DNA from: a virus
Lineage: Duplodnaviria; Heunggongvirae; Uroviricota; Caudoviricetes
Direction: 5' to 3' (one strand)
DNA length: 31,064 nt
Virus record (IMG/VR): IMGVR_UViG_2737471828_000009
Span: 1-31,064 of that record
In this document: positions 4,986 to 5,145 of the stretch, piece by piece
How positions within the stretch are numbered: position 1 is the first letter of the stretch
Layout: every line of letters starts with the position of its first letter
Notes under the pieces: generated by a model
Told to the model about the DNA's origin: nothing
What the model saw: only the letters and a program-made list of their open reading frames with translations
Database searches by the model: none
Position numbers and translations under genes: made by a program

Positions 4986-5145
4986 GCCCCCGTAGGGGCG
5001 GTTAGTTTCTCCACAAAACAGAGAAGAACACCTGCGGTGGCAGCCGCCCGGATGGATTGGGTTATGAGCTCGTCGTCCGGTGATGCTCTTCTCTGTTTTG
5101 TAAAAAGGACGGTACCAGCCGGAAGCAAGGGTACAAGCTGGTACC
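4986..5145. other. Highly structured non-coding region (nested inverted repeats; candidate regulatory RNA and tL-type terminator)
   Basis: Perfect 15-bp inverted repeat ACAAAACAGAGAAGA (5013..5027) / TCTTCTCTGTTTTGT (5087..5101) enclosing a 59-nt GC-rich segment with further sub-hairpins; second perfect 9-bp stem GGTACCAGC (5111..5119) / GCTGGTACC (5137..5145), which on the minus strand is followed by a T5 run. Confidence 0.35.

What the first reader, a model, noticed from the sequence alone, without database searches (positions are those of the whole stretch)
4986..5145. Unusually elaborate nested inverted-repeat structure between early-left genes: candidate structured RNA or antitermination-sensitive terminator
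A perfect 15-bp inverted repeat (5013..5027 / 5087..5101) encloses a GC-rich 59-nt segment with its own sub-hairpins, followed by a second perfect 9-bp stem (5111..5119 / 5137..5145) that on the minus strand precedes a T5 run. This is far more structure than a simple terminator and lies in the roughly 260-bp gap between the HD-hydrolase gene and upstream genes of the leftward operon. It may be a tL-type terminator complex, an sRNA, or a cis-acting antitermination or processing element. The ORF-track ORFs overlapping it look compositionally non-coding.
Basis: seen in the sequence. Interest (0 to 1): 0.5.

Follow-up and report, generated by a model that had tools for sequence, protein, structure and literature searches.

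The report
Prophage sRNA terminator plus structured leader
The small hairpin is the terminator of a DicF-like prophage small RNA, and the large nested hairpin next to it is a very widespread, uncatalogued structured RNA in the early-left transcript of e14/SfV-type prophages whose exact job is still unknown.

Summary
The repeats are real and far beyond chance. All of it is RNA on the minus strand, in the leader of the leftward early (PL-like) operon of an e14/SfV/ST64B-type lambdoid prophage.

(1) Hairpin A (5107-5148) plus U5 (5102-5106) is an intrinsic terminator. Its e14 homologue gives a Term-seq 3' end on the last U in E. coli K-12. Together with the GU-rich stretch upstream, it is position-homologous and sequence-related to DicF and STnc100 prophage sRNAs. 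Relatives score just under Rfam cut-offs; the window copy does not score.

(2) Element B (5006-5101) is a three-way junction: a 20-25 bp stem P1, an arm P2 and a variable arm P3. It occurs once per prophage, in about half of complete E. coli genomes and in 14 enterobacterial genera. Pairing holds in 95% of cells, with 11 compensatory pairs. No Rfam family matches it.

The tip of P2 shares 14 nt with the anticodon stem-loop of initiator tRNA-fMet.

Most likely B is an RNase III-type processing and insulator hairpin that separates the sRNA from the downstream mRNA, as in the Qin dicBF operon. This is inferred, not shown, and the role of the tRNA-like tip is unknown.

It is not a put site, not a C4/P4-type immunity RNA, not a tRNA and not a gene (ymfH).

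The parts
5939..5966 (-). PL-like sigma-70 promoter (TTGACA-16-CATAAT, 11 of 12), just downstream of the repressor-gene terminator at 5975-5994. Presumed source of the leftward transcript.
   Evidence: The repressor gene 6006-6680(-) carries Peptidase_S24 and matches a CI-like phrog. A consensus match only; not shown to be active.
5176..5201 (-). Hairpin X (GAGCCUG-N13-CAGGCA). Its e14 twin precedes a very abundant RNA 3' end.
   Evidence: The sequence is identical to e14's. Term-seq 3' end 1201423(-) appears in all three conditions, with 109,099 to 285,136 reads.
5149..5175 (-). GU-rich single-stranded linker (AAUAGUUUCAUUGCUGUGUGUAGUCUUGG), at the position of the DicF seed region.
   Evidence: Alignments A1 and A5. 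The e14 equivalent falls inside the DicF and STnc100 model matches.
5107..5148 (-).
   Evidence: Of 117 distinct homologous modules, 109 keep a stable hairpin abutting T5-7 and 6 more keep one a few bases upstream, with 83 different hairpin sequences.
5102..5106 (-). U5 tract of terminator A, the point of termination.
   Evidence: In e14, Term-seq 3' end 1201195(-) falls on the last U of this tract (34,193 reads, M63).
5082..5101 (-). Element B, 5' arm of stem P1.
   Evidence: Covariance model R1 hit 5006-5101(-), 101.7 bits. Pair counts.
5048..5080 (-). Element B, arm P2. A 7-position stem (CCGGACG/CAUCCGG) encloses an internal loop and the hairpin G-A-G CUCAUAA CCC. The family consensus is GGG CUCAUAA CCC, which equals the anticodon stem-loop of tRNA-fMet. 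The window copy has a private G-to-A change that breaks the middle pair.
   Evidence: The tRNA sequence was verified. The window variant is absent from 161 loci.
5034..5047 (-). Element B, arm P3 (GCGG-CUGCCA-CCGC). Its length and sequence vary across the family.
   Evidence: 44 of 48 distinct P3 segments fold, at 15-19 or 34-40 nt.
5013..5032 (-). Element B, 3' arm of stem P1.
5006..5012 (-). Conserved tail GGAGAAA. It can extend P1 by 5 pairs with the U5 tract of the terminator.
   Evidence: MFE structures. Conserved in A2 and A4. The tail is also kept in L019, which has no U-tract, so pairing cannot be the only constraint.
4986..4999 (-). Hairpin C (GCCCC-UACG-GGGGC). The hairpin is conserved but its sequence varies. 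It lies between B and the ribosome-binding site of the first early-left gene.
4351..4887 (-). First gene downstream: YfdR-like HD 5'-deoxynucleotidase.
   Evidence: phrog_318, E = 4e-110. Annotated yfdR in relatives.

Best explanation
Leftward transcripts of this prophage's early (PL-like) operon first make a DicF/STnc100-type small RNA: hairpin X, a GU-rich seed-like linker, then terminator hairpin A with U5. Most transcripts stop at the U5 tract. This is shown for the e14 homologue and inferred for the window.

Transcripts that read through continue directly into element B. B is a three-way-junction RNA whose 20-bp stem P1 begins at the first base after the U-tract. P1 can extend to 25 bp by pairing that U-tract with the conserved GGAGA tail.

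I infer that this long duplex is an RNase III-type processing and insulator hairpin. It would cut the sRNA unit away from the downstream early-left mRNA, leaving that mRNA with hairpin C near its 5' end. This parallels the Qin dicBF operon, where a closely similar long hairpin is the RNase III site that defines the 190-nt DicF.

The nearly invariant apical arm P2 copies the anticodon stem-loop of initiator tRNA. It presumably binds a conserved host factor, but which one, and why, is unknown.
For: RNA on the minus strand:
- Across 82 distinct B sequences, 95.3% of cells are paired and 11 pairs show compensatory changes. 0 of 500 shuffles reach the observed percentage paired, number of compensatory pairs or covariation score. 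Slid controls give 41-56%.
- There are 139 G-U cells against 25 A-C cells, so pairing is 95.3% on the minus strand and 90.5% on the plus strand.

Terminator:
- 115 of 117 distinct modules keep a hairpin plus T-run, despite 83 different hairpin sequences.
- The e14 Term-seq 3' end falls on the last U.

sRNA kinship:
- The DicF model matches linker plus A in L034 (28.4 bits, E = 3e-4) and in e14 (28.5 bits).
- The STnc100 model matches the stretch ending at A's U-tract at 38.7-43.4 bits (gathering score 47).
- The leader upstream of Qin dicF is visibly homologous to that of locus L003.
- The location, next to the repressor in the early operon, is the same in every annotated relative.

RNase III analogy:
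- Ragunathan et al. 2023 (PMC10448788) show that RNase III makes the 5' end of the 190-nt DicF. By length arithmetic that end falls in the 3' arm of the long hairpin L162 2291-2376.
- Model R1, built from B, picks out that hairpin as its best match in the Qin locus (15.5 bits, E about 0.01).
- e14 has an equivalent hairpin whose 5' base coincides with the abundant 3' end 1201423.
- Gordon et al. 2017 list an RNase III site in the dicF-dicB spacer.

Host-factor logic: B is almost invariant from Escherichia to Erwinia and Mixta, while the repressors and downstream genes around it differ.
Against: - No experiment shows cleavage in B. Adams et al. list no 3' end inside or just after B in K-12, so B may simply be barely transcribed there.
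- An RNase III site does not need the invariant P2 arm, so processing cannot be the whole function.
- The R1 match to the Qin hairpin is weak and rests on the stem arms only.
- The window copy itself scores for neither DicF nor STnc100. It lacks the upstream domain found in relatives and carries a unique mutation in the P2 tip, so this copy may be decaying.
- The homologues were collected with patterns placed inside B, and they are related prophages, so conservation figures are partly affected by ascertainment and shared descent.
Confidence: 0.5

Rival explanations
1. B is a functional mimic of the initiator-tRNA anticodon stem-loop. It would engage a host factor that recognises tRNA-fMet. One candidate is the VapC/MvpT toxins of Shigella and Salmonella, which cut tRNA-fMet in that loop; B would act as a decoy or a sensor for them. 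Other candidates are the 30S P site with IF3, or MetRS.
For: - The B consensus shares 14 contiguous nt (CGGGCUCAUAACCC) and 17 of 21 nt with the anticodon arm of E. coli tRNA-fMet, folded in the same register. 0 of 20,000 shuffles reach 14 nt.
- This is the most conserved part of B. It stays conserved in loci that were collected with a pattern elsewhere in B.
- Salmonella and Shigella VapC toxins cleave tRNA-fMet in the anticodon stem-loop (review PMC7180214).
- Carriers include Shigella phages SfII, SfIV and SfV and Salmonella phage ST64B.
Against: - Only three base pairs plus the loop are copied. Positions 37-38 vary (AA 107 copies, UC 16, UA 6) and e14 has a UUAAUAA loop.
- A terminator directly upstream would limit the amount of any decoy.
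- No tRNA-like fold is detected by ARAGORN or Rfam.
- No experiment bears on this, and the window copy has the middle G-C pair broken.
Confidence: 0.12
2. B is a put-like, factor-independent processive antiterminator. It would fold on the nascent RNA, bind RNA polymerase and let it read through terminators further down the early-left operon.
For: - These prophages show no N-like gene between PL and the early-left genes.
- B sits in the leader at the nutL/putL position.
- B is conserved independently of the surrounding phage genes, as expected for an element that contacts a host machine.
Against: - There is no sequence or architectural likeness to HK022 putL or putR, and R1 finds nothing in the HK022 locus at E <= 1e-10.
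- There is no second copy in the rightward operon of the 31-kb window, whereas HK022 has putL and putR.
- B lies after the terminator, not before it.
- Its closing stem forms only after about 90 nt, which suits co-transcriptional action poorly.
Confidence: 0.1
3. B is processed into a stable trans-acting RNA that causes premature termination in superinfecting phages. This is the C4 / P4 CI / N15 CB type of RNA immunity, and would be the system reported for SfV by Roberts et al. 2007.
For: - B has a long closing stem with two internal arms, like processed leader RNAs.
- SfV carries this module.
- SfV is cited as using a non-coding RNA for superinfection immunity.
Against: - SfV has a bona fide Rfam C4 RNA (82 bits) and an isrK RNA (64 bits) inside its annotated 'immunity region' orf37, in the rightward operon. 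That accounts for the reported system.
- B gives no C4 or isrK match even at E <= 10, and the window has neither RNA.
- No conserved complementary target for B's loops was found in flanking DNA.
- No RNA 3' ends for B are listed in the K-12 lysogen.
Confidence: 0.05
4. The region is protein-coding (ymfH in K-12; the 82-aa ORF 4944-5192 here) or acts as DNA (a MITE or recombination site).
For: RefSeq annotates ymfH or 'hypothetical protein' over it. The repeats are also DNA palindromes.
Against: - B length varies (96, 97, 98, 99, 100, 115, 117-123 nt), so no reading frame is kept.
- The ORF has no Pfam or PHROG match, and one RefSeq record marks the ORF over this region as frameshifted.
- G-U pairs far outnumber A-C pairs, which fits RNA rather than DNA pairing.
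- The orientation relative to the operon is fixed, there is one copy per prophage, and conservation extends beyond the inverted repeat.
Confidence: 0.03

Closest known systems
[quoted passage not shown]
   Same: - Sits in the early operon beside the prophage repressor gene.
- Has a GU-rich 5' part followed by a GGCGGUAYCAG...CCGCCCUUUUU terminator hairpin.
- The upstream leader is homologous to that of relatives of the window.
- The terminator is leaky and is followed by early genes.
- Long hairpins in the leader serve RNase III.
   Different: - The seed sequence differs.
- Scores reach only about 28 bits against a gathering score of 48 in relatives, and nothing for the window copy.
- Qin has no element B after dicF (best R1 score in that spacer 7 bits).
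- Targets such as ftsZ were not tested.
STnc100 (Rfam RF02076), gammaproteobacterial Hfq-associated sRNA
   Same: The model consensus contains the UGGUGA...CACCA closing helix, the CCGGGAGGCACCCGG hairpin and a terminal hairpin plus U-run. In relatives these align to the stretch that ends at hairpin A's U-tract.
   Different: - Scores are just below gathering (38.7-43.4 against 47; e14 scores 29).
- The window lacks most of this domain and gives no match.
- STnc100 does not include element B.
RNase III processing hairpins of phage early transcripts (Qin dicBF leader; lambda N-leader and sib; T7 R sites; the last three from general knowledge)
   Same: A duplex of 20-25 bp between functional units of a polycistronic early transcript. 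The stem arms resemble those of the Qin hairpin where the RNase III-made end of the 190-nt DicF falls.
   Different: B carries an invariant three-way-junction apex that no described RNase III site needs. Cleavage of B has not been tested.
HK022 putL/putR antiterminator RNAs
   Same: A cis-acting structured RNA in the early leader of a lambdoid phage that lacks N.
   Different: No sequence or structural likeness, a single copy, and a position after a terminator.
C4 / isrK / P4 CI-type immunity RNAs (Rfam RF01695, RF01394)
   Same: Structured RNAs in leaders of temperate-phage operons, with a long closing stem and internal arms.
   Different: No model match for B. In SfV-type phages the real C4 and isrK RNAs lie elsewhere, in the rightward operon.
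Anticodon stem-loop of initiator tRNA-fMet
   Same: 14 contiguous nt and 17 of 21 nt are identical. The three G-C pairs and the CUCAUAA loop sit in the same hairpin register.
   Different: The rest of B is not tRNA-like. Loop positions 37-38 vary and the upper stem pairs are mismatched.

Membership tests
DicF (RF00039) | Covariance-model score at or above the gathering score (48 bits) | tested here: not met
   Window: no match even at E <= 10. Relatives: 28.4 bits (L034) and 28.5 bits (e14), E about 3e-4, full-length model alignment.
DicF (RF00039) | Encoded inside the early operon next to the prophage repressor, upstream of early genes | tested here: met
   Window: repressor 6006-6680(-), PL-like promoter 5939-5966(-), element at 5102-5175(-). 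The same layout holds in Qin and in all annotated relatives.
DicF (RF00039) | 3' end made by a Rho-independent terminator | tested here: met
   Hairpin plus U5. The e14 Term-seq 3' end lies on the last U. The hairpin plus T-run is conserved in 115 of 117 modules. The experimental evidence is for the homologue, not for this copy.
DicF (RF00039) | Base-pairs with ftsZ and other DicF targets; binds Hfq | not tested
   The seed sequence differs from DicF. No target prediction was run.
STnc100 (RF02076) | Covariance-model score at or above the gathering score (47 bits) | tested here: not met
   Window: none. Relatives: 43.4, 42.4 and 38.7 bits; e14: 29.2 bits.
RNase III processing site | Roughly two turns of near-perfect dsRNA | tested here: met
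   P1 has 20 pairs, or 25 with the U-tract:GGAGA extension, and 94.6% of its cells are paired across 82 sequences.
RNase III processing site | RNase III-dependent cleavage in vivo or in vitro | not testable with these tools
   Only analogy is available: the Qin hairpin at the RNase III-made end of the 190-nt DicF. The RNase III map supplement of Altuvia 2018 is not held. The stored copy of Gordon 2017 Table S1, which was cut when stored, has no e14 entry.
HK022 put RNA | Sequence and two-stem architecture like putL/putR, one copy in each early operon, placed upstream of terminators | tested here: not met
C4 / isrK / P4 CI immunity RNA | Match to RF01695 or RF01394 | tested here: not met
   No match at E <= 10 over B, either in the window or in L034. 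True C4 and isrK RNAs were found elsewhere in SfV, L050 and L064.
tRNA / tRNA-like element | Cloverleaf detectable by ARAGORN or Rfam RF00005 | tested here: not met
   Only the anticodon arm is copied.

The most novel reading that the evidence does not exclude
The invariant tip of element B is a working molecular mimic of the initiator-tRNA anticodon stem-loop. Temperate phages of Enterobacterales would place it at the head of their early-left mRNA to engage a host factor that reads tRNA-fMet. The most attractive candidate is the VapC/MvpT family of anticodon nucleases, with B acting as a decoy or as a sensor of toxin activation. The 30S P site is an alternative. This would be an RNA-based counter-defence or host-sensing device present in about half of E. 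coli genomes.
Probability: 0.12. Interest if true: 0.85.

Novelty: new variant of a known kind. Interest (0 to 1): 0.5.

Why it matters
Element B is one of the most widespread prophage RNA structures in E. coli: the module matches in 2784 of 5426 complete genomes, with up to six places per genome. It is also present in serotype-converting Shigella phages, Stx2-converting phages and Salmonella ST64B. Yet no Rfam family matches it, and it is routinely mis-annotated as a protein (ymfH or 'hypothetical protein').

Three practical gains follow from recognising the region as a DicF/STnc100-like sRNA followed by a conserved processing or host-contact RNA:
- Annotation can be corrected.
- The way early-left genes (xis/int, yfdPQR) are gated becomes a testable model.
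- A specific, cheap hypothesis emerges: a tRNA-fMet anticodon-arm mimic.

If the mimicry is functional, it would add an RNA decoy or sensor to the phage-host conflict over tRNAs.

Tried and rejected
- **Rfam.** The whole window at gathering thresholds gave nothing. The region at E <= 10 gave only noise (miRNA, PhotoRC-I, hairpin ribozyme fragments).
- **SfV 'transcription-termination-mediated immunity'** (Roberts 2007, recalled from memory; the paper is not held). I first suspected this module. I rejected that after finding C4 and isrK RNAs in SfV's annotated immunity region in the rightward operon.
- **AgvB/AsxR anti-sRNAs of EHEC prophages.** They lie at the PR' moron site, not here.
- **HK022 put.** I read both put sites and found no likeness.
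- **N-like antiterminator.** No candidate among YmfJ, YmfI or the small ORFs of leaders in relatives.
- **Trans target for the CUCAUAA loop.** The only recurrent complementary 7-mer lies inside the yfdR coding sequence, so it is not informative.
- **Kissing interaction between the P3 loop and the hairpin C loop.** It fits some variants but fails in others (by eye).
- **tRNA gene or relic.** ARAGORN finds nothing. One viral contig (L148) has an Rfam tRNA hit just upstream of the module, which I did not follow up.
- **Experimental maps.** Thomason 2015 transcription start sites are not held. Melamed 2016 and Altuvia 2018 supplements are not held. DicF itself is absent from the Adams 2021 3'-end tables.
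- **SfV genome paper** (PMC134923): not held.

Full report
**Observation**

- Repeat arms 5013-5037 / 5077-5101 are 25 nt and 84% complementary, and contain the perfect 15-mer.
- Arms 5111-5119 / 5137-5145 are a perfect 9-mer pair, followed on the minus strand by T5 at 5102-5106.
- As RNA, the minus strand of 4980-5170 folds with z = -5.8 and the plus strand with z = -4.0.

**Setting**

The window is an e14/SfV/ST64B-type lambdoid prophage. The layout on the minus strand, reading leftward, is:
- An S24-type CI repressor gene at 6006-6680, followed by its terminator at 5975-5994.
- A strong PL-like promoter at 5939-5966.
- ymfJ at 5523-5831. The gene ymfI (5244-5585) lies on the opposite strand.
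- The structured region.
- A YfdR-like HD phosphatase gene at 4351-4887.

No N-like protein is evident here or in the leaders of relatives.

**Distribution**

The segment 4996-5164 behaves as a discrete module.
- It matches in 2784 of 5426 complete E. coli genomes, with up to 6 places per genome.
- It matches 60 phage records, including SfII, SfIV, SfV, ST64B, Stx2-converting phages and a Klebsiella phage.
- Pattern scans recovered it from 14 enterobacterial genera and from 120 viral contigs.
- In every annotated relative it lies between the repressor gene and the first leftward early gene, in the same orientation. The flanking genes differ: yfdP-Q-R, yfdR alone, or xisE.

**Two units, not one**

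Read on the minus strand, alignments show this order:
1. A GU-rich linker (UGCUGUGUGUAGUCUUGG).
2. Hairpin A, variable in sequence, followed by U5-7.
3. Element B.
4. The conserved tail GGAGAAAC.
5. Hairpin C, variable in sequence.
6. The ribosome-binding site of the first gene.

**Unit 1: the terminator of a DicF/STnc100-like sRNA**

- Of 117 distinct modules, 109 keep a stable hairpin abutting a run of at least four T (T5-7). Six more keep one a few bases upstream. There are 83 different hairpin sequences, so the structure is selected rather than the sequence.
- There is direct evidence for the homologue in E. coli K-12 e14. The Term-seq tables of Adams et al. 2021 list a 3' end at 1201195(-) on the last U of the tract (GGUACCGCCCUUUU[U]ACAAAAC; 34,193 reads, M63).
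- The same tables list ends at 1201257(-) and at 1201423(-). The last appears in all three conditions with up to 285,136 reads. It follows a hairpin that the window also carries (5176-5201).
- Rfam's DicF model aligns full-length to linker plus A in a Leclercia copy (28.4 bits, E = 3e-4) and in e14 (28.5 bits). Rfam's STnc100 model aligns to the roughly 220 nt that end at A's U-tract, at 38.7-43.4 bits against a gathering score of 47.
- The leader upstream of dicF in Qin is plainly homologous to that of locus L003, and DicF occupies the position of linker plus A.
- The window copy lacks most of the upstream STnc100-like domain and does not itself score. I therefore call it DicF/STnc100-like by synteny and partial similarity, not a member by the curated thresholds.

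**Unit 2: element B (5006-5101)**

B is a three-way junction:
- P1: 20 pairs, or 25 if the terminator's U-tract pairs with GGAGA.
- P2: CCGGRYG/CAYCCGG, enclosing an internal loop and the hairpin GGG-CUCAUAA-CCC.
- P3: variable, 15-19 or 34-40 nt; 44 of 48 distinct versions fold.

The evidence that it is a real RNA structure on the minus strand:
- Across 82 distinct sequences, 95.3% of cells pair and 11 of 29 pairs show changes on both sides. 0 of 500 shuffles reach the observed percentage paired, number of compensatory pairs or covariation score, and slid controls give 42-56% (the smaller set is).
- G-U cells outnumber A-C cells 139 to 25.
- B length varies by amounts that are not multiples of three, which, with the lack of any family match, rules out the ymfH / 82-aa ORF as a gene.
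- A covariance model finds exactly one sense copy per locus and only this one in the window.
- No Rfam family matches B.

Caveats. The homologues were collected with patterns inside B and they are related prophages. The conservation of the P2 tip was, however, checked on loci gathered with a pattern in the P1 3' arm.

**The tRNA look-alike**

- The B consensus shares CGGGCUCAUAACCC (14 nt; 17 of 21 over the arm) with the anticodon stem-loop of E. coli initiator tRNA-fMet. It includes the three G-C pairs that typify initiator tRNA (general knowledge).
- I verified the tRNA sequence at 100% identity in all 5426 genomes.
- 0 of 20,000 shuffles of B reach 14 nt.
- Loop variants keep CUCAU. The last two loop bases vary: AA in 107 copies, UC in 16, UA in 6.
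- The window copy has a private G-to-A change in the middle pair that none of 161 loci shares.

**What B most likely does**

In Qin, the 190-nt DicF is made by RNase III and the 53-nt form by RNase E (Ragunathan et al. 2023).
- By length arithmetic, the RNase III-made end falls in the 3' arm of a 22-bp hairpin, L162 2291-2376.
- That hairpin's arms (CCAUAAC...GUUGUGG) resemble B's P1. It is the best match of the B model in that locus, though the match is weak (E about 0.01).
- e14 has an equivalent hairpin, and the abundant 3' end 1201423 sits at its 5' base.
- An RNase III site is also listed in the dicF-dicB spacer.

B starts at the first base after the terminator and can draw the U-tract into a 25-bp duplex. 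The best-supported reading is therefore that B is the processing and insulator hairpin for read-through transcripts. This is an inference: cleavage of B has not been shown, and a processing role does not explain the invariant P2 arm.

**Rejected readings**

- HK022 put: no likeness, a single copy, and a position after the terminator.
- C4/P4-type immunity RNA: the real C4 and isrK RNAs of SfV-type phages lie in the rightward 'immunity region'. That probably accounts for the RNA-mediated immunity reported for SfV.
- AgvB/AsxR: these lie at a different locus.
- A tRNA gene.
- A protein-coding region or a DNA-level element.

**Verdict**

The finding is real.
- Its smaller hairpin is ordinary: the terminator of a known kind of prophage sRNA.
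- Its larger hairpin is a widespread, well-supported RNA family that no Rfam model matches and that is mis-annotated as protein. It has a plausible but unproven processing role and an unexplained tRNA-fMet-like tip.

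Noticed in passing
window 5176-5201 (minus strand); e14 MG1655 1201423(-): Hairpin X (GAGCCUG-N13-CAGGCA) is identical to an e14 hairpin that precedes one of the more abundant orphan RNA 3' ends in K-12 Term-seq (109,099 to 285,136 reads in all three conditions; scored not Rho-dependent in the LB 0.4 table). In e14 that end sits at the 5' base of a further long hairpin, so it may be an RNase III product. The stable RNA itself appears undescribed.
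   Followed up: partly
L005 (SfV) 6456-6532 and 6557-6644 (+); L050; L064: SfV-type phages carry Rfam isrK and C4 antisense RNAs in tandem inside the ORF annotated 'immunity region' (orf37) of the rightward operon. This is probably the RNA/termination immunity system reported for SfV. The window has neither RNA.
   Followed up: partly
L001 2981-3292 (K-12 ymfH); window ORF 4944-5192 (-): The RefSeq CDS ymfH ('protein YmfH'), and the 'hypothetical protein' calls in many genomes, overlie the STnc100/DicF-like RNA plus element B. Frame-breaking length variation and the absence of any family match indicate the ORF is not a gene.
   Followed up: yes
window 5070 (minus-strand base A in GACGAGCUCAU): The window's copy of B has a G-to-A change that breaks the middle G-C pair of the tRNA-like hairpin. 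None of 161 fetched loci shares it. The window also lacks the upstream STnc100-like domain, so this prophage copy may be degenerating.
   Followed up: partly
L162 (Qin) 2559-2727, dicF-dicB spacer: Downstream of dicF, Qin has another structured domain. By eye it is closed by a 16-bp helix (AUUUUGUGAUGUGGUG / CACUGCAUCACAAAAU) and contains a CCUGG-AGGCA-CCAGG hairpin like 'hairpin 0' of the e14-type leaders. A published table lists an RNase III site in this spacer.
   Followed up: no
leaders of relatives, e.g. L001 3172-3293 (-), L003 3170-3290 (-): An upstream GUUGUGGUG can pair with the conserved CACCACAAC just before the linker, enclosing two or three hairpins (the STnc100-like domain). The same GUUGUGG could instead pair with the 5' arm of the preceding long hairpin. 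This hints at alternative folds in the leader.
   Followed up: no
hairpin C and P3 of many loci (e.g. L013, L015, L018, L024); hairpin 0 (CCGGG-AGGCA-CCCGG): Loops of the type (U/G)(U/G)GCAG or AGGCA recur on hairpins of otherwise unrelated stem sequence at three places in the leader. This could be a shared protein-binding or tertiary-contact motif.
   Followed up: no
L148 1077-1203 (-): One viral contig has an Rfam tRNA hit (43.9 bits, 127 nt, not called by ARAGORN) immediately upstream of the terminator and element B. Its T-arm (GUGGGUUCGAAUCCCAC) takes the place of 'hairpin 0'.
   Followed up: no
L019 (Mixta tenebrionis) about 1500-1700 (+): Here element B follows a promoter/operator-like region directly (TTGATT-N18-TATAGT, with CTACTTAAAGTAG palindromes). 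There is no sRNA unit or terminator upstream, so B can exist on its own as the start of the early-left leader.
   Followed up: no
window 5244-5585 (+) against 5523-5831 (-): ymfI (plus strand) lies inside the leftward operon and overlaps the 3' end of ymfJ by 63 bp. Leftward PL transcripts must therefore run antisense through ymfI before reaching the structured leader.
   Followed up: no
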